64,000 bases of DNA from an uncultured virus (IMG/VR IMGVR_UViG_3300046385_000116) (IMGVR_UViG_3300046385_000116); one strand, 5' to 3'. Counted from the first letter of the stretch, positions 7,696 through 59,700 are shown. The notes: generated from the sequence alone by a model not told the origin. Numbers and translations are program-made.

Positions 7696-9276
7696 ATGAA
7701 CAAAGTAAAATTTCACACAATAGAACAACCAGATTCAGACATTACAACTTTCGTATTAAGTTGTAATCGTCTGGATGTTTTGGATAAAACCCTCACATCA
7801 TTTTTAAATACCAAAGAATATGCCACAAAGATGGTTATTGTGGATGATTCTGCTGAGCCAGGAGTATTCGAATCTCTTGTTGAGAAGTATGGAGATTTTT
7901 GTGATGTGATTTGTTTTTCTAAAAATAGGTCACAGTGGTGGGCAATGGATTTTATGGTATCTTATTGTGATACTGATTATATTTTCTACCTTGAAGATGA
8001 TTGGGAATTTGTAGAAAAGGGATATCTTCAAAAGTCCAAAGATATATTACAGAAATATAGAAATATAGGAACAGTAGATATATCATGGAGAACATTTGAA
8101 GATGAGGGTATTGATTCATATGAAAAAGAATTAGTCGATGATTTGTTTTATTATAAGAAAGCTTGGAAGATTACAGATTATCACCTCTGTTGGTATGGCT
8201 GGATTGGAAGTCCTAATTTAAAACGCAGAGAAGATTTAATTCTTTTAGGTCGAGTTGAAAAGTGGCACAATGAATGGAATATTGACCGCAGGTTTAGAGC
8301 TCTTGGATTCCGTGCGGTATTCCTAAACGGCAAATATGTGCAACACTTAGGTGATTATTGTTCCCGTATGGAAGGCAAAAGACCTGATGACGGTACAACT
8401 CCCGAACATTATTATCCAGCCGAACTACAAGCAGAAAGAACATGGCCAAAATTCGATTATATGTTCTTGGATGGCCATTGGAAGTCTCCGTGGGAAGTTA
8501 CTATGGTTACTGCTATGTTGGACATTCAACGAGAGGATAGAAGTTTTGAAGAACACTACCTTGAAGGCATTAAAAAGGTTTTACAATGCCGAAATCCTAT
8601 GGTTGTGTTTGCCGAAAGTAAATGGCATACTTGGATTAGGGAACAACGAGGAACATTACCGATTTATATCTATGATTTCTCTTTGACTGATTTGGAAAAT
8701 ACTGAATACTTCAATTCAATACAAAAGATTATATCAACACCAGAATGGCAGAACCAAGCTGAGTGGATGAAAACAAGTGTTATTAAAGACAAGTATTATA
8801 TACCTCTGACACTTATTAAGAATCAATTATTAGAAAAAGTTGTTAATGAAAACCCCTGTCATGGCCAAAAGTTTTATTGGATAGATTCAGGTATGTGTAG
8901 TAGTTATGGTATTGGTGAACATATTGATATGTTTAATTTTAATAAAATACCAGACGAGAAGTTCTTTCTGACATCTTATGCATATAATACCGATACAGAA
9001 ATACATGGTTATAATATTAATAAAATGACAGAAATGTGTGGTAGAAAACCAAATTATGTTTGTCGTGCAACTTTATTTGGTGGTAAACCAGAACAGATTA
9101 AAGAGTTTAATAAAAAGTATAATGAGTATCTTTACAAATCCATAGTTCGTGGAGATATAGGAACAGAAGAAGCAATATACACAATAGTTGATATTCTTCA
9201 TCCGGAATTAGTTCATAAATATGAAATGCCATATGGTGATATTAAATTATTTTTGAATACTATTAGGAGTAGGTGA
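7696..9276 (+). CDS. two-domain glycosyltransferase: GT-A (GT2-like) plus HtrL/WlaTC-like domain
   Basis: N-terminal 'SCNRLDVL...IVDDS...YLEDDW'; C-terminal 'TMVTAMLDI.RE...K...L......NP.....FYWIDSG...LFGG...GTEE'. Confidence 0.75.
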   Translation: MNKVKFHTIEQPDSDITTFVLSCNRLDVLDKTLTSFLNTKEYATKMVIVDDSAEPGVFESLVEKYGDFCDVICFSKNRSQWWAMDFMVSYCDTDYIFYLEDDWEFVEKGYLQKSKDILQKYRNIGTVDISWRTFEDEGIDSYEKELVDDLFYYKKAWKITDYHLCWYGWIGSPNLKRREDLILLGRVEKWHNEWNIDRRFRALGFRAVFLNGKYVQHLGDYCSRMEGKRPDDGTTPEHYYPAELQAERTWPKFDYMFLDGHWKSPWEVTMVTAMLDIQREDRSFEEHYLEGIKKVLQCRNPMVVFAESKWHTWIREQRGTLPIYIYDFSLTDLENTEYFNSIQKIISTPEWQNQAEWMKTSVIKDKYYIPLTLIKNQLLEKVVNENPCHGQKFYWIDSGMCSSYGIGEHIDMFNFNKIPDEKFFLTSYAYNTDTEIHGYNINKMTEMCGRKPNYVCRATLFGGKPEQIKEFNKKYNEYLYKSIVRGDIGTEEAIYTIVDILHPELVHKYEMPYGDIKLFLNTIRSR

Positions 9277-9827
9277 TGCTTGTGAAACACAAACACCACA
9301 TAATACCAAAACATATGGGTGGAACAGATGATCCATCCAATCTTATTGAGTTGACCATAGAAGAACATGCGGAAGAACATAGGATGTTATTTGAAAAATA
9401 TGGTAAAGAAGAAGATAGACTTGCATGGTTAGGGTTATCTAAACAAATATCTAAAGTTGAATTGTTGATTGAAATTAGAAAATCTGAATCATATAAACAA
9501 AAACACAAAAAAGCTGTAAATGATCCACAATATAAAAAAAGAATGAGTGAATTGTTTTCTGGCAAAAACCATCCAATGTATGGTAAAAAACACACCGAAG
9601 AATCTAAACAAAAAATTAGGCAAAAAAGAAAAAATCAAATTTTTACTTCCGAACAAATAGAAAAAAGAACAAAAAAATTATATAAATCATTACAAACACC
9701 GGATGGAATATTCGAAAGTCGTCAAAAAGCTGCTGAATATTATAATGTGGATCCTGCCACATTAAACCATCGGATGAAAACAAAACCAACTGAATATTAT
9801 TATATAAAGAAAGTGAAAAAAATATGA
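9273..9827 (+). mobile_element. free-standing HNH homing endonuclease with NUMOD3-like DNA-binding repeats
   Basis: HKHHIIPKHMGGTDDPSNLIELTIEEHAEEH (HNH) and GKNHPMYGKKHTEESKQKI (NUMOD3). Overlaps both flanking genes by 4 nt. Confidence 0.9.
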
Positions 9828-36906: not shown

Positions 36907-37485
36907 ATGAAACTATATAGAATTTATAAATGCACAAATTCAATTAATGGTAAAACTTATATAGGTTTCACCAATAAAGAATTGAATAAGAGGATTACAG
37001 AACATAAATGTGCAGCTAAAAATGGTAGTGAATATCTGATACATAAATCAATAAGAAAATATGGTTTAGAATCATTTGTATGGGAATGTTTATACGAATC
37101 TACAGATAAAGAATATGTGTTGACGTTTATGGAAAAATATTTTATACATGAATACAATTCTTATTATGAGAATGGTTTTGGTTATAATATGACTTTTGGT
37201 GGTCAAGGAGGTATGTTAGGTAAAAAACATACAGACAAAACAAAACAAAAATTAAAAGAAGCAAGAGCAAAAAGAACTGTGGAACCTATGTTAGGTAAAA
37301 AACATAGTAATTCTTCTAAAGAAAAAATGAGTTTAACTAGACTTAATAATCCCGATAAAGTATCTCAAGCAAAAAAAGCAGGTCAAATTTCAGCTGAAAA
37401 ACGTAAAAATGATCCAGAATATAGATTGAAACTTTCACAAAAAATAAAAGAATGTTGGGCATTAAGAAAGGCAATGGGTAACTAA
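36907..37485 (+). mobile_element. free-standing GIY-YIG (seg-like) homing endonuclease with NUMOD3 repeats
   Basis: RIYKCTNSINGKTYIGFT ... R..EH ... GYNMT.GG; two GKKH(T/S) NUMOD3 motifs. Confidence 0.9.
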
Positions 37486-57331: not shown

Positions 57332-57900
57332 GTAATGAATTAATTATTGATACAGGTAGTAATGTAGTAAAAGAAAATCGGACAGAACCATTAACTGTTT
57401 TTAATGAAAAACATCCTATGTTGTCGGCTGTAATGCCTGAATATGATGTATCTTCTTTACCTAATTCACATATGAATGAATTGACGGCAAGACTTAAATT
57501 GACCATGAAGTTATATTCAGGCATCGGCTTGTCTGCTAATCAATGTGCCGTGCAGGAAAGAGTATTTGTCATCGGCACAGACCATTTTCAAATGGTTTGT
57601 ATCAACCCTAAAGTTATTAACAAGTCGGCAGAAGAAACAAAACGCAAAGAAGGTTGCCTCTCTAGTCCAGGCTTATTTGTTACAATACCAAGAAGTAACT
57701 CAATAGATGTTGAATACTATACCGAACTAGGTGAATTAAAACAACTCACACTTGATGGTGTAACAGCTCAATGCTTTCAACATGAACTTGACCACTTGAA
57801 TGGTATCACATTTACCTCTAAAGCTGGTCCTGTTGCGTTACAATTAGCAAAGAAGAAACAACAGAAATTAATTAAAAAAGTAAAGAAACTATACAAATAA
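57328..57900 (+). CDS. def: peptide deformylase
   Basis: GIGLSANQ, EGCLS, QHELDHLNG. Confidence 0.95.
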   Translation: MSNELIIDTGSNVVKENRTEPLTVFNEKHPMLSAVMPEYDVSSLPNSHMNELTARLKLTMKLYSGIGLSANQCAVQERVFVIGTDHFQMVCINPKVINKSAEETKRKEGCLSSPGLFVTIPRSNSIDVEYYTELGELKQLTLDGVTAQCFQHELDHLNGITFTSKAGPVALQLAKKKQQKLIKKVKKLYK

Positions 57901-59243
57901 TGGCATATGCATTTGACCCTAAAGATGATGTAGAAGCACAATGGCAGAAGTGGCAAGAAGCCAACCCACCATCAACATATTTAAATATTGATGAGGGTGA
58001 TTTGCGTGAAACAGTTATCCGAGATTTAACTTATGTTTCTAAAATGGATGTGAAAGAATACACACTTTACCAAAAGTGGTGTGAAATTCAACAGAAATAT
58101 CCGACACAAAGAAACATGACTGTCTTTGGGGAAGAAGAAGTATTCCTTGTTGACCCATCACAACAGAAACTTGTTGATGAGGTAAAGAGTAACATTTGGG
58201 TTCCACAGAATCCAGATTCTTACCTTGACTTAGAGCCTGTATTGGAATATACAGACGATTCTGGTGAAACAACTCGCATCGCAGTTGACGGCACAGAGGT
58301 TAAGGTTGACAGAAAACGAAATAAAGAACTACCTGAAAAGTGGAATACTATCAGAAACTTTATTTCTACAATGAAGAACAATAGTAATATTGGCCGTAAT
58401 CTAAACTTTATCGTTAAAGATAATAAAACAGGTAAATATCTTGGTGTGATTTGTATCTCATCAGACTTTCTTGATTTAACTCCACGTGATGACAAGATTG
58501 GTTGGCCAAGAGATTTGAAAACTACTGGCGGTATGATTAATCACACTGCTATTGGTTCTACTATTGTTCCATTCCAACCACTAGGTTATAACTATGTGGG
58601 TGGTAAACTACTAGCTTTACTTTGCCTTTCAGATGAAGTGCAAAATCTTTGGAAGAAACAATATGGTGATACACTTATCGGTGTAACTACAACATCATTG
58701 TATGGCAAAACTAAAGCTGGTGGTCTTTCTCAGTATGATAACCTTGACCATTGGCAACCGATGGGATTCACAAGTGGTTCAGTATCATTTGAACCAGAAC
58801 GTGATACTCGTTATAAGATTCGTGAATGGTTAAAGGCTAATCATACAAGAAAATACTTTGAGTGGTATGTTGCGAAGAAGCCTTCAGGACAACCACACAA
58901 ACGTGACCATAAGAATCGGTCTCTAGCGTTTACATACTCTAAGATGAGTGTGCCAAAAGAACTAATCAGAACCGAACACGCAAGAGGTATATACTTTAGC
59001 CCGTTATACGACAACTCCTATGAATTCTTGCGAGGTGAGATTAAAGAAACTGAATTGGTAAAATCTTTTGATACATCATACGAATCCCTAGTCAAGATTT
59101 GGAAAGAGAAACACGCTAGAGGCCGAATTGGTTTTCTAAAGAAGAAAGATAAAGTATCAAGTGAAGTTTTATTTTATGATGACCTCATATATTTGGATTG
59201 GGAACAGACCAAGGCAAAATACTTAGGGCAAGTCGGTAGATAA
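57900..59243 (+). CDS. DUF4338/DruA-family (Mom-like, GNAT-fold) protein
   Basis: GRNLNFIVKD..TGKYLGVI.ISSD..DL..RD..IGW; VP.QP.GYN.VGGKLLALL; TTTSLYGK...SQY; W..MGFTSG. Motifs recognised by eye. Confidence 0.7.
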   Translation: MAYAFDPKDDVEAQWQKWQEANPPSTYLNIDEGDLRETVIRDLTYVSKMDVKEYTLYQKWCEIQQKYPTQRNMTVFGEEEVFLVDPSQQKLVDEVKSNIWVPQNPDSYLDLEPVLEYTDDSGETTRIAVDGTEVKVDRKRNKELPEKWNTIRNFISTMKNNSNIGRNLNFIVKDNKTGKYLGVICISSDFLDLTPRDDKIGWPRDLKTTGGMINHTAIGSTIVPFQPLGYNYVGGKLLALLCLSDEVQNLWKKQYGDTLIGVTTTSLYGKTKAGGLSQYDNLDHWQPMGFTSGSVSFEPERDTRYKIREWLKANHTRKYFEWYVAKKPSGQPHKRDHKNRSLAFTYSKMSVPKELIRTEHARGIYFSPLYDNSYEFLRGEIKETELVKSFDTSYESLVKIWKEKHARGRIGFLKKKDKVSSEVLFYDDLIYLDWEQTKAKYLGQVGR

Positions 59244-59265
59244 AAACAATTGCCTCGAAAAGGGC

Positions 59266-59294
59266 TTGATTTTAATAAAAAAGTCCTATATAAT
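59266..59294 (+). promoter_or_regulatory. sigma70-type promoter driving the tRNA-like RNA
   Basis: TTGATT (59266-59271)-17 nt-TATAAT (59289-59294); predicted start about 59301. Confidence 0.75.
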
Positions 59295-59303
59295 TATATC
59301 AAT

Positions 59304-59371
59304 GCGGTGTAGTACAGACTAGAGTAGGTGTCCAATCTACTTGCTTGGTGCGAATCCAAGACACCGCTCCA
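59304..59371 (+). tRNA. non-canonical tRNA-Gly(TCC)-like RNA with reduced D-arm and encoded CCA
   Basis: Acceptor GCGGTGT/ACACCGC plus T plus CCA; anticodon arm GTAGG-TGTCCAA-TCTAC; T arm CTTGG-TGCGAAT-CCAAG; only 13 nt between the acceptor and anticodon stems. Confidence 0.85.
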
Positions 59372-59378
59372 AATTCTG

Positions 59379-59403
59379 AACCCTACCTTTCGGTAGGGTT
59401 TTT
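59379..59403 (+). terminator. rho-independent terminator after the tRNA-like RNA
   Basis: AACCCTACC-TTTC-GGTAGGGTT followed by TTT. Confidence 0.85.
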
Positions 59404-59464
59404 CTTTATTGCCTCAAATAAATACCAGTTGTGTTATACTATCTTCTTTGAATAGGAGAATAAT

Positions 59465-59653
59465 ATGTATGATGGCCAATTAATCGAAGATTATTCCCAT
59501 ACCCTTATCGATCAAGAAGAAATGCACTTTTATTCTTGTATTGCCGATGTCTTGGATGCCTTTAAAACTCACGGAGTAGACCATGTCCTCAATGAGGTAT
59601 CTAAAAATACCGTTATGAAACAACAGCTTAGAGAGTGGCTTGCCAAACAGTGA
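59465..59653 (+). CDS. hypothetical protein
   Basis: AGGAG SD; extended -10 element TGTTATACT upstream. Confidence 0.55.
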   Translation: MYDGQLIEDYSHTLIDQEEMHFYSCIADVLDAFKTHGVDHVLNEVSKNTVMKQQLREWLAKQ

Positions 59654-59668
59654 TATTTGTGTTATAAT
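59640..59668 (+). promoter_or_regulatory. sigma70-type early promoter
   Basis: TTGCCA-17 nt-TATAAT with extended TG. Confidence 0.7.
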
Positions 59669-59700
59669 GGTAATTATTATAGTGGAAAAGTATAGAAAAT

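What the first reader, a model, noticed from the sequence alone, without database searches (positions are those of the whole stretch)
59304..59371. 68-nt tRNA-Gly(UCC) that keeps aminoacylation identity but breaks universal translation features
Seen, retained: G1-C72, C2-G71, G3-C70, discriminator U73, anticodon C35-C36 and an encoded CCA, which are the bacterial GlyRS identity elements. Seen, lost or altered: no U8; the D-arm shrinks to a 3-bp mini-hairpin (AGT-ACAG-ACT) with no G18G19; the T-loop reads UGCGAAU instead of UUCGAAU; position 33 is G rather than the invariant U; the variable loop is 3 nt; the T-stem has U50-A64 and U51-A63, weak EF-Tu-binding pairs. All stems are fully paired (one G-U) and the promoter and terminator are intact, which argues for selection rather than decay. 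Loss of GG and GUGC in place of GT-Psi-C parallels staphylococcal non-proteinogenic tRNA-Gly. Standard tRNA scanners may miss it or call it a pseudogene.
Basis: partly seen in the sequence, partly recalled or inferred. Interest (0 to 1): 0.82.

Follow-up and report, generated by a model that had tools for sequence, protein, structure and literature searches.

The report
Phage mini tRNA-Gly that cannot decode
An abundant group of freshwater T4-like phages carries a shrunken glycine tRNA that keeps the parts needed to be loaded with glycine but has lost the parts needed by the ribosome, so it probably hands glycine to an enzyme instead of to protein synthesis.

Summary
Window 59304-59371 (+) is a 68-nt mini-cloverleaf with its own promoter and terminator. 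ARAGORN (bacterial mode) and Rfam miss it; ARAGORN's mitochondrial mode calls exactly these bases a D-armless tRNA-Gly(UCC).

It belongs to a large family: 71 distinct sequences of 63-70 nt from uncultured T4-like phage contigs. Covariation supports all four helices (83% of cells paired against 41-53% in slid controls; 17 of 22 pairs with double changes).

The invariant bases are G1-C72, C2-G71, G3-C70, G4-C69, U73, CCA and two loop cytosines. These match the published bacterial GlyRS identity set. U8, G18G19, U33, the 7-nt anticodon loop and T54-Psi55-C56 are lost, although canonical tRNA-Gly genes of the same phages keep them.

The gene sits in two places: 2-69 nt behind a DruA/DUF4338-type GNAT gene (66 of 76 informative loci, as here), or inside the phage tRNA cluster beside canonical tRNA-Gly(UCC). 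The GNAT's best structural match is phage Mu Mom, which uses Gly-tRNA-Gly to modify DNA, but ordinary GNATs score within the tie margin.

Best reading: a non-decoding glycine carrier, possibly feeding that GNAT. Charging, expression and the partner are untested. I found no published description. Earlier scan notes cover the GNAT only.

The parts
57900..59243 (+). DruA/DUF4338-type GNAT gene (447 aa), candidate user of the RNA
   Evidence: Pfam PF14236 DruA, E 1.2e-18. AF2 model pLDDT 91. VIA-align over 48,161 chains: Mom 8bv8_B ranks first (Z 9.5, rmsd 4.1, 173 aligned), tied with ordinary GNATs at Z 9.0-8.0. DUF4338 is called a GNAT in PMC10853773 (passage).
59266..59294 (+). sigma-70-like promoter TTGATT-17-TATAAT, 9 nt before G1
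   Evidence: 10 of 12 matches. Relatives have other promoters at the same distance or none.
59304..59371 (+). 68-nt mini tRNA-Gly-like RNA, whole gene with encoded CCA
   Evidence: (R1 73.8 bits).
59304..59310 (+). acceptor stem 5' strand; pairs with 59361-59367. G1-C72, C2-G71, G3-C70 and G4-C69 are invariant in the family.
   Evidence: GC/CG/GC/GC in 37 of 37 distinct sequences.
59311..59320 (+). 3-bp D-side mini-hairpin AGU-ACAG-ACU, with no U8 and no G18G19
   Evidence: Helix 2 has double changes in 3 of 3 pairs.
59322..59342 (+). long anticodon-side stem-loop. Loop 59329-59335 (or 59330-59334 if U32-A38 pair); invariant CC at 59332-59333.
   Evidence: CC is present in all 37 distinct sequences.
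59344..59360 (+). T arm CUUGG-UGCGAAU-CCAAG, with G55 in place of Psi55
   Evidence: G53-C61 in 37 of 37; A58 in 71 of 71; a UUC T loop in 1 of 71.
59361..59371 (+). acceptor 3' strand, discriminator U (59368) and CCA
   Evidence: Invariant CCGCUCCA.
59378..59409 (+). intrinsic terminator (10-bp stem, then a T run)

Best explanation
The element is a phage gene for a tRNA-Gly-derived carrier RNA that no longer decodes.

Shown:
- It is a real, selected, structured RNA gene.
- It descends from, or is modelled on, tRNA-Gly.
- It keeps every sequence determinant that bacterial GlyRS is known to read.
- It lacks the features that the ribosome needs.

Inferred mechanism:
- It is transcribed from its own promoter, or behind the upstream gene where a promoter is missing.
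- It is trimmed at the 5' end by RNase P and ends in its encoded CCA.
- The host's GlyRS loads it with glycine.
- Without the D/T elbow and without a 7-nt U33 anticodon loop, it stays out of translation and forms a private pool of activated glycine.

Most speculative step: this glycine is used by the DruA-type GNAT encoded directly upstream, acting as an aminoacyl-tRNA-dependent transferase in the way Mom of phage Mu uses Gly-tRNA-Gly. The target is unknown; DNA is one possibility.

My odds for each step: real structured tRNA-Gly derivative 0.95; not a decoder 0.85; glycylated 0.65; donor for the neighbouring GNAT 0.35.
For: Family and structure:
- 66 of 80 loci fetched with the GNAT protein carry the RNA 2-69 nt after its stop codon. 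Four more loci are cut off there.
- There are 37 distinct sequences with mean column identity 65%.
- 83.1% of cells are paired against 41-53% when partners are slid. 17 of 22 pairs show changes on both sides. The covariation score is 0.429 against 0.148 shuffled, reached by 0 of 500 shuffles.

What is conserved:
- The invariants are G1-C72, C2-G71, G3-C70, G4-C69, U73, CCA, two loop Cs, G53-C61 and A58.
- PMC10464925 (abstract and passages) gives G1-C72, C2-G71, C35, C36, U73 and purine4-pyrimidine69 as the determinants for bacterial GlyRS. It also reports that D, T and V loop sequences matter little.
- The base before CC is U, A, C or G, so only the GlyRS-read part of the 'anticodon' is fixed.

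Derivation from tRNA-Gly:
- Model R1 also picks out canonical tRNA-Gly genes in the phage tRNA clusters, at about 24-46 bits. The only other canonical tRNA it touched overlaps a tRNA-Tyr (25 bits).
- The phages' canonical tRNA-Gly genes share GCGG...CCGCUCCA.

Not a decoder:
- 26 distinct canonical tRNA-Gly genes from the same loci have U33 in 26 of 26, GG in the D loop in 26 of 26, a UUCRANN T loop in 26 of 26 and U8 in 25 of 26.
- The 71 minis have a UUC T loop in 1 of 71 and U8 in 6 of 71.
- Their C-rich loops are 3-6 nt (CCCA, UACCC, GUCCA, UUCCC and others).
- Positions 32 and 38 pair with covariation: UA 11, AU 9, GC 2 of 37.
- A complete relative (G003, 168.9 kb) has the mini plus canonical tRNA-Gly(UCC) and (GCC) among more than 25 tRNAs.

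Partner:
- The GNAT fold is confident, and Mom is the top structural match.
- Mom transfers glycine from Gly-tRNA-Gly and seems to read only the acceptor end (PMC13219725, abstract and sections 10 and 14).
- Both near-complete genomes that hold a mini (G003; and G011, whose copy is a divergent one, 32 bits with R1) also hold the GNAT.
Against: - No data on expression or charging. Two metatranscriptome runs gave contigs only over 59486-59700, not over the RNA.
- PMC10464925 also states that its GlyRS needs the arms and the whole L shape, so a reduced body may be a poor substrate.
- Adjacency to the GNAT is not universal. In the pattern scan that did not use the GNAT, 15 of the first 29 strong hits lie behind the GNAT, but 13 lie in tRNA clusters 8-15 kb from it.
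- The GNAT exists without the RNA. This holds for both cultured pelagiphages, for a clade of 10 loci, and for G002 and G004.
- The GNAT looks near-universal in this phage group and T4-like gene order is conservative, so co-occurrence and adjacency are weak evidence.
- RNA types do not track the GNAT tree. Window and L004 GNATs are 90% identical, yet their RNAs differ in every arm.
- The Mom match is tied with ordinary acetyltransferases (Z 9.5 against 9.0-8.0). There is no sequence link to Mom.
Confidence: 0.38

Rival explanations
1. It is a glycine carrier as above, but for another enzyme than the neighbouring GNAT. This could be a host or phage aminoacyl-tRNA-dependent transferase encoded elsewhere. 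The position behind the GNAT gene would then be an accident of a conserved gene order.
For: About half of the strong hits in the GNAT-independent scan sit in tRNA clusters, not by the GNAT. RNA types are shuffled relative to the GNAT tree. The GNAT occurs without the RNA.
Against: No other candidate transferase was seen in the window. Near-identical RNA alleles occur both in the tRNA cluster and behind the GNAT (L128 against L050; L104 against L120). The same two sites are therefore re-used.
Confidence: 0.2
2. It is a decoy or sponge. As a harmless look-alike of (Gly-)tRNA-Gly, it soaks up a host factor that attacks or senses tRNA-Gly. Candidates are a GNAT toxin that acetylates Gly-tRNA-Gly, an acceptor- or anticodon-directed nuclease, a T-box, or GlyRS itself.
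For: Only the acceptor end and the CC loop are fixed, which is what a mimic of tRNA-Gly would need. Very different RNA alleles sit behind near-identical neighbours, a pattern common at arms-race loci. tRNA-acetylating toxins are GNATs that act on charged tRNA-Gly (mentioned in PMC13219725, section 14).
Against: No host or defence system is known for these phages. A decoy for an anticodon nuclease should keep a normal anticodon loop, and here it is 3-6 nt. Allele shuffling is also what neutral drift plus recombination gives.
Confidence: 0.2
3. It is an RNA processing or stability element. This would be a tRNA-shaped RNase P site and/or terminator that defines the 3' end of the GNAT mRNA or the 5' end of the tRNA operon, with no role for charging.
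For: In several loci it starts 2-6 nt after the stop codon with no promoter of its own (L020, L074, L037). In others CCA is followed directly by a U run (L013). In tRNA clusters it is the first gene after a promoter.
Against: A processing signal does not need U73, an encoded CCA, G1-G4 identity pairs or an invariant CC in a distant loop.
Confidence: 0.07
4. It is an odd but working decoder tRNA-Gly, comparable to D-armless mitochondrial tRNAs.
For: ARAGORN's mitochondrial mode accepts it as a D-loop tRNA-Gly(UCC). The window's copy can be drawn with a 7-nt loop, and its acceptor and T stems stack to the normal 12 bp. Some copies lie in tRNA clusters.
Against: Family loops are 3-6 nt, 32-38 pair, and U33 is not conserved. 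The same genomes carry canonical tRNA-Gly(UCC) right beside it. From general knowledge, bacterial ribosomes and EF-Tu are not known to use armless tRNAs.
Confidence: 0.07
5. It is a decaying tRNA-Gly pseudogene.
For: It has lost universal tRNA features and scanners reject it.
Against: All four helices are kept by compensatory changes across 37-71 distinct sequences. 13 bases are invariant while the rest turns over.
Confidence: 0.02

Closest known systems
Non-proteogenic tRNA-Gly (NP1-3) of Staphylococcus aureus and S. epidermidis, donors for FmhB/FemA/FemB (PMC7826273, abstract and passages read)
   Same: Extra tRNA-Gly copies that GlyRS still charges. They carry UGC/UGU instead of UUC in the T loop, lack pseudouridine, and bind EF-Tu and the ribosome poorly. 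They supply glycine to GNAT-fold transferases.
   Different: The staphylococcal RNAs are full-size cloverleaves with a normal UCC anticodon arm. They are cellular, serve cell-wall synthesis and are confined to staphylococci. The phage RNA is 63-70 nt with a 3-bp D hairpin and a 3-6-nt loop. It is viral, and no Fem gene is nearby (FemA scores only Z 7.9 to the neighbouring GNAT).
Mom of phage Mu with host Gly-tRNA-Gly (PMC13219725, abstract and sections 10, 13 in part, 14 read)
   Same: A phage GNAT that takes glycine from charged tRNA-Gly and seems to read mainly the acceptor end. It is the best structural match of the gene next to the RNA (Z 9.5).
   Different: Mom uses ordinary host tRNA-Gly isoacceptors, and no dedicated RNA is described. 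The paper does not mention DruA, DUF4338 or phage tRNAs. The DruA-type protein is twice as long and shows no sequence match to Mom. Its substrate is unknown.
D-armless and otherwise reduced mitochondrial tRNAs of animals
   Same: The shape is the same: ARAGORN's mitochondrial model accepts the window's RNA as a D-loop tRNA-Gly.
   Different: Those RNAs decode with co-evolved mitochondrial factors and keep a 7-nt anticodon loop. This family does not keep such a loop, and it lives beside canonical tRNAs.
Stable RNAs 'species 1 and 2' (rnaC, rnaD) in the tRNA cluster of phage T4 (recalled, not checked in any call)
   Same: Small stable non-tRNA RNAs of unknown role encoded within a T4-type tRNA cluster. 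That is one of the two places where this family sits.
   Different: As I recall, the T4 RNAs are longer and not tRNA-Gly-like. No comparison was made here.

Membership tests
Canonical bacterial/phage elongator tRNA (Rfam RF00005, ARAGORN bacterial model) | Recognised by the standard models | tested here: not met
   ARAGORN found 0 genes in the window and 0 in the 42 loci tested, 36 of which hold the RNA. Rfam gave no tRNA match even at E<=10. ARAGORN finds it only at -ps80.
Canonical bacterial/phage elongator tRNA | U8, a 4-bp D stem and G18G19 in the D loop | tested here: not met
   3-bp hairpin with a 3-5-nt loop. U8 in 6 of 71 minis, against 25 of 26 canonical tRNA-Gly genes from the same loci; those have GG in 26 of 26.
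Canonical bacterial/phage elongator tRNA | 7-nt anticodon loop with U33 | tested here: not met
   G at 33 in the window. Family loops are 3-6 nt in MFE folds. 32-38 pair as UA 11, AU 9, GC 2 of 37. The aligned '33' column reads U 15, G 9, A 7, C 6.
Canonical bacterial/phage elongator tRNA | T54-Psi55-C56 (UUC) in a 7-nt T loop; G53-C61; A58 | tested here: not met
   UUC in 1 of 71. G53-C61 (37 of 37) and A58 (71 of 71) are kept, and the loop stays 7 nt.
Substrates of bacterial GlyRS | G1-C72, C2-G71, U73, C35, C36 and purine4-pyrimidine69 (PMC10464925) | tested here: met
   All are invariant in the 37 distinct sequences found through the GNAT gene. For the 34 further sequences the search pattern itself demanded the acceptor bases.
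Substrates of bacterial GlyRS | L-shaped body that reaches both binding sites; actual glycylation | not testable with these tools
   Needs an aminoacylation assay or a 3-D RNA model.
Staphylococcal non-proteogenic tRNA-Gly | UGC/UGU in place of UUC in the T loop | tested here: met
   The window has UGCGAAU. Across the family position 55 is G or U and position 56 is C, A or U.
Staphylococcal non-proteogenic tRNA-Gly | Full-size cloverleaf with a normal UCC anticodon arm; staphylococcal lineage; used by Fem transferases | tested here: not met
   63-70 nt with a reduced D arm and a small loop. It lies in phage contigs, and no Fem gene was seen in the window.
Mom-type tRNA-dependent GNAT (for the neighbouring gene) | GNAT fold closest to Mom | tested here: inconclusive
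   The GNAT fold is clear. Mom 8bv8_B ranks first (Z 9.5, rmsd 4.1, 173 of 202 aligned), but ordinary GNATs follow within 1 Z unit. Foldseek gave only weak GNAT rows, E >= 0.02.
Mom-type tRNA-dependent GNAT | Equivalents of Mom R111 and S124 and of its HTH-like insertion; glycyl transfer | not tested
   No residue-level structural alignment was available. The profile search of PDB sequences did not reach Mom.

The most novel reading that the evidence does not exclude
These phages run a private, two-part aminoacyl-transfer system. One part is a translation-blind glycyl carrier RNA. The other is a DruA-type GNAT that uses it to glycylate a non-protein target such as phage DNA. This would be the first virus-encoded non-proteinogenic tRNA. 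It would also give the first biochemical handle on DruA, the unexplained enzyme-like component of type I Druantia defence.
Probability: 0.3. Interest if true: 0.92.

Novelty: new variant of a known kind. Interest (0 to 1): 0.8.

Why it matters
- Until now, dedicated non-decoding tRNAs that feed transferases were, according to PMC7826273, known only from staphylococci. Here the same solution appears in a virus, in a far more reduced form, in a widespread group of uncultured freshwater phages.
- Standard annotation tools do not see the gene.
- The family is a natural experiment on the minimum that GlyRS needs. Everything except the acceptor end, two loop cytosines and the helix pattern has drifted.
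- If the neighbouring GNAT is the user, that would extend the newly found Mom chemistry (charged tRNA as a donor for DNA modification). It would also suggest what DruA proteins do.

Tried and rejected
- Similar DNA in cultured phages: none for 59200-59460. Only two pelagiphages carry a close GNAT homolog. They lack the RNA both behind the gene and genome-wide (best 14.9 bits).
- Whole genome of the window: none is held.
- Expression: the run search found 2 metatranscriptome runs of one study with a 0.05 share of words. Their contigs lie only on 59486-59700, from relatives at 90-99% likeness, and none covers the RNA. This says nothing either way, since small structured RNAs are usually lost from such libraries.
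- N-terminal domain of the GNAT folded alone (22 sequences): pLDDT 60, too poor to search with.
- RNAalifold on the raw MAFFT alignment recovered only the acceptor stem because the inner arms were misaligned. The structure was therefore given by hand from the window's fold and refitted with Infernal. That alignment leans towards the model, so I rely on the slid-partner control.
- Association test in other lineages: five weak R1 hits (25-37 bits) lie in contigs with no DruA-type gene. Three of these contigs are proviruses. These RNAs are probably ordinary or fragmentary tRNA-Gly, so the test is uninformative.
- Literature: searches found no description of a phage mini tRNA-Gly or of an RNA partner of DruA/DUF4338. 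Subscription journals are not covered. I opened no supplements.
- The careful maximum-likelihood tree did not finish, so only the quick tree is used.

Full report
WHAT IS THERE

Window 59304-59371 (+) reads GCGGUGU-AGUACAGACU-A-GAGUAGG-UGUCCAA-UCUACUU-G-CUUGG-UGCGAAU-CCAAG-ACACCGC-U-CCA. It folds on its own into a four-way junction: a 7-bp acceptor stem, a 3-bp D-side hairpin, a long anticodon-side stem and a 5-bp T stem with a 7-nt loop. The energy is -24.2 kcal/mol, z -2.89, with 2 of 200 shuffles as good. With the downstream hairpin included it is -39.9 kcal/mol, z -5.28, 0 of 200.

A TTGATT-17-TATAAT promoter ends 9 nt before G1, and a 10-bp terminator with a T run follows 6 nt after CCA. 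The promoter scan as a whole is not above chance: 7 sites against 5.5 +/- 2.2 expected.

ARAGORN in bacterial mode and Rfam find nothing. ARAGORN's metazoan-mitochondrial mode calls exactly these 68 bases a D-loop tRNA-Gly(UCC). The bacterial mode does so only with its threshold lowered to 80%.

SETTING

The window (36% G+C) is a piece of a T4-like myovirus. It holds the portal, sheath, tube, major head protein, UvsY, UvsW-like helicase and late sigma factor genes. These are followed by gp47/gp46 (SbcD/SbcC), peptide deformylase, a DruA/DUF4338-type protein (57900-59243), the RNA, a 62-aa ORF, a large 'peptidase' (phrog_459) and a CobS-like ATPase. The nearest cultured relatives are Pelagibacter phages Mosig and HTVC008M, at about 68-70% DNA identity over a fifth of the region.

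A LARGE FAMILY UNDER SELECTION

I used the DruA-type protein to fetch related loci from IMG/VR. 366 stretches encode a relative, and the best 80 were kept. In 66 of the 80 loci an element GCGG...CCGC-U-CCA of 63-69 nt starts 2-69 nt after the stop codon. In 4 loci the contig ends there. In 10 loci it is absent.

The 37 distinct sequences are only 65% identical per column on average. They differ in every arm, yet nearly all fold to the same shape one by one. I built a covariance model from them with the window's structure (R1) and refitted the sequences to it. On that alignment:
- 83.1% of cells are standard pairs, against 41-53% when the 3' partners are slid by 1-3 columns.
- 17 of 22 pairs have changes on both sides.
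- The covariation score is 0.429 against 0.148 +/- 0.014 in shuffles, reached by 0 of 500.
- The D-side hairpin (3 of 3 pairs), the long stem (7 of 7) and the T stem (4 of 5) all show double changes.

The refitted alignment leans towards the model, so the slid control is the fair comparison. This excludes a decaying pseudogene.

WHAT IS FIXED AND WHAT IS FREE

Invariant in all 37 distinct sequences are G1-C72, C2-G71, G3-C70, G4-C69, U73, CCA, two adjacent Cs in the middle loop, the G53-C61 pair and A58.

A study of bacterial alpha2beta2 GlyRS names G1-C72, C2-G71, C35, C36 and U73 as determinants, plus a purine at 4 with a pyrimidine at 69. It finds that D, T and variable loop sequences hardly matter (PMC10464925, abstract and passages). 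The fixed bases of the family are therefore the GlyRS identity set.

The base 5' of the CC is U, A, C or G in different members. The part of the 'anticodon' that GlyRS ignores is thus free. The same paper says that the enzyme needs the arms and the L shape, which is a caveat for so small a body.

LOST TRANSLATION FEATURES, WITH AN INTERNAL CONTROL

I ran a second scan of IMG/VR that did not use the GNAT, with the pattern GCGG N34-42 G NNNRANN C N6-7 CCGCUCCA. It yielded 29 plus 13 further R1 hits at or above 48 bits, the lowest score among the founding sequences. That makes 71 distinct sequences in all.

Feature | 71 minis | 26 canonical tRNA-Gly from the same loci
UUC at the start of the T loop | 1 of 71 | 26 of 26 (UUCRANN)
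U at position 8 | 6 of 71 | 25 of 26
GG in the D loop | lost | 26 of 26
U33 | not conserved | 26 of 26
Loop holding the anticodon bases | C-rich, 3-6 nt (CCCA, UACCC, GUCCA, UUCCC, CCCC, CACCC and others) | not tabulated
Start GCGG and end CCGCUCCA | all (partly forced by the pattern) | 24 of 26

Positions 32 and 38 form Watson-Crick pairs that covary: UA 11, AU 9, GC 2 of 37. The remaining 15 are mostly rows of the shortest class that the model misaligns.

A complete relative (G003, 168.9 kb, terminal repeats) has the mini next to its GNAT gene. It also has more than 25 canonical tRNAs, including tRNA-Gly(UCC) and (GCC). The mini is therefore an extra copy, not the phage's decoder.

Among the canonical tRNAs of these clusters, R1 hits essentially only tRNA-Gly, at about 24-46 bits. 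The one other canonical tRNA touched overlaps a tRNA-Tyr (25 bits). This fits descent from tRNA-Gly.

TWO GENOMIC HOMES

Of the first 29 strong hits of the GNAT-independent scan:
- 15 lie behind a DruA-type gene; one of these is 547 nt away.
- 13 lie inside tRNA clusters.
- 1 is cut off.

In the clusters the mini usually follows its own TTGACA-type promoter. In 7 loci it stands 1-6 nt from a canonical tRNA-Gly(UCC). Seven more of the later hits also have a canonical tRNA-Gly beside them. One locus has two minis in tandem (L177).

Contigs with the cluster arrangement carry a DruA-type gene 8-15 kb away. Four of 5 have a full-length copy at 70-73% identity. The fifth, only 29% complete, has just a distant paralog. 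A 98%-complete genome with a divergent mini also has the gene.

On a quick tree of 75 GNAT proteins the loci without an adjacent RNA fall into three groups (the careful search did not finish):
- the two pelagiphages;
- the clade with the cluster arrangement;
- one nested clade of 8 rows that appears to have lost the RNA.

RNA types do not follow this tree. The window's GNAT is 90% identical to that of L004, yet the RNAs differ in every arm: GUCCA/UGCGAAU against CACCC/AGCAAAG. Conversely, nearly identical RNAs occur in both homes (L050 and L128; L120 and L104). So RNA alleles are exchanged between phages and between the same two sites.

THE NEIGHBOUR

The 447-aa protein matches Pfam DruA. It has 899 relatives at E<=0.001 among 1.84 billion cluster representatives. 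Its AlphaFold model is confident (pLDDT 91, pTM 0.87).

Foldseek gives only weak GNAT rows. VIA-align against 48,161 representative chains puts the crystal structure of phage Mu Mom first (8bv8_B: Z 9.5, rmsd 4.1, 173 residues aligned). Ordinary acetyltransferases follow at Z 9.0-8.0, the tRNA-acetylating toxin TacT3 at 8.0 and FemA at 7.9. A profile search of PDB sequences does not reach Mom.

A published domain survey also calls DUF4338 a GNAT (PMC10853773, one passage). Two earlier notes of this scan reached the same 'Mom ranks first within a tie' result on other DNA. I repeated the test here and do not count those notes as independent support.

Mom was recently shown to transfer glycine from Gly-tRNA-Gly to adenine in double-stranded DNA. 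It accepts all three E. coli isoacceptors and probably reads only the acceptor end (PMC13219725, abstract and sections 10 and 14). That paper does not mention DruA, DUF4338 or phage tRNAs.

MOST LIKELY MECHANISM

Shown: a selected, tRNA-Gly-derived RNA that keeps the GlyRS determinants and has lost the ribosome-facing ones.

Inferred:
- RNase P trims the 5' end. This is needed where the RNA starts 2-6 nt after the stop codon without a promoter.
- The host GlyRS charges the RNA.
- The missing elbow and the small loop keep it off EF-Tu and the ribosome, as argued for the staphylococcal non-proteogenic tRNA-Gly (PMC7826273).

Speculative: the DruA-type GNAT draws glycine from this pool.

Arguments for the link:
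- The two genes are adjacent in 66 of 76 informative loci across GNAT identities from 63 to 100%.
- That site is re-used by different RNA alleles.
- The GNAT resembles Mom.
- The only parts of the RNA that never change are those a Mom-like enzyme and GlyRS would read.

Arguments against the link:
- The RNA is often elsewhere.
- The GNAT occurs without it: in both pelagiphages (best R1 hit genome-wide 14.9 bits), in G002 and in G004.
- There is no co-evolution between the RNA body and the GNAT.
- Gene order in T4-like phages is conservative.
- The GNAT is near-universal in this group.

Rivals are a glycine carrier for another enzyme, a decoy for a tRNA-Gly-directed host factor, a processing element, and an odd decoder. 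Their odds are given in their own sections.

COMPARISON AND NOVELTY

The RNA works like the staphylococcal non-proteogenic tRNA-Gly but is not a member of that lineage. It is viral, 63-70 nt long, has no real D arm and has no anticodon loop. It has the shape of D-armless mitochondrial tRNAs but sits beside canonical tRNAs in a bacterial virus.

I found no description of it, nor of any RNA partner of DruA, in eight literature searches. Those searches do not cover most subscription journals.

I did not check it.

I class the finding as a new variant of a known kind.

LIMITS

- All relatives are uncultured contigs, and the host is unknown.
- There are no data on expression or charging.
- The acceptor invariance of the 34 sequences from the pattern scan is forced by the pattern.
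- Loop sizes come from MFE folds and a simple helper script.
- The GNAT tree is the quick version.

Noticed in passing
window 59465-59653 (+): A 62-aa ORF directly after the RNA's terminator. The same small ORF follows the RNA in relatives (for example L048). It is the only part of 59150-59700 covered by contigs of two metatranscriptome runs. It has no family match.
   Followed up: partly
L083 9215-9250 and L084 9748-9775: Pelagiphages Mosig and HTVC008M lack the mini tRNA. In the equivalent gap before the 'peptidase' gene they share a conserved hairpin-like stretch (GCUGUGCGA...CGCA). It may be a different small RNA.
   Followed up: no
L177 287-355 and 362-430 (- strand): Two mini tRNA-Gly genes of different type in tandem, 6 nt apart (54.5 and 62.0 bits).
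   Followed up: no
window and L004 (and L120 against L013): Near-identical GNAT genes (90% identity) are followed by RNAs of wholly different type, each with a different promoter. The promoter-plus-RNA unit seems to be swapped as a cassette.
   Followed up: partly
L103 1501-1569 (- strand): A 69-nt tRNA-Gly-like gene in a 98%-complete, 38-kb phage contig (the RNA itself has 67% G+C). It has a 3-bp D stem, a 6-nt loop AUCCAA and a normal UUCAAUC T loop. ARAGORN misses it, and the contig has no DruA-type gene.
   Followed up: partly
L150 1501-1570 (- strand): A 70-nt tRNA-like gene in a provirus tRNA cluster. Its acceptor end is the glycine type (GCGG...CCGCUCCA) but its loop CUCCUAA would read as anticodon CCU.
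   Followed up: no
G006-G012, e.g. G011:C1:117165-118112: A second, shorter DruA-type paralog (about 370-382 aa, 36-42% identical over residues 144-285) is present in the same phage contigs.
   Followed up: no
window 59283-59299 and the same place in L011, L018, L044, L047, L066, L069, L075: A shared AUAUAUAAUUAUA-like motif lies just upstream of the RNA, in some loci with no room for a -35 box. It may be a late-type (gp55) promoter rather than a sigma-70 one.
   Followed up: no
window 9273-9827 and 36907-37485 (+): Two homing-endonuclease-like ORFs lie among tail-fibre and head-tail connector genes.
   Followed up: no
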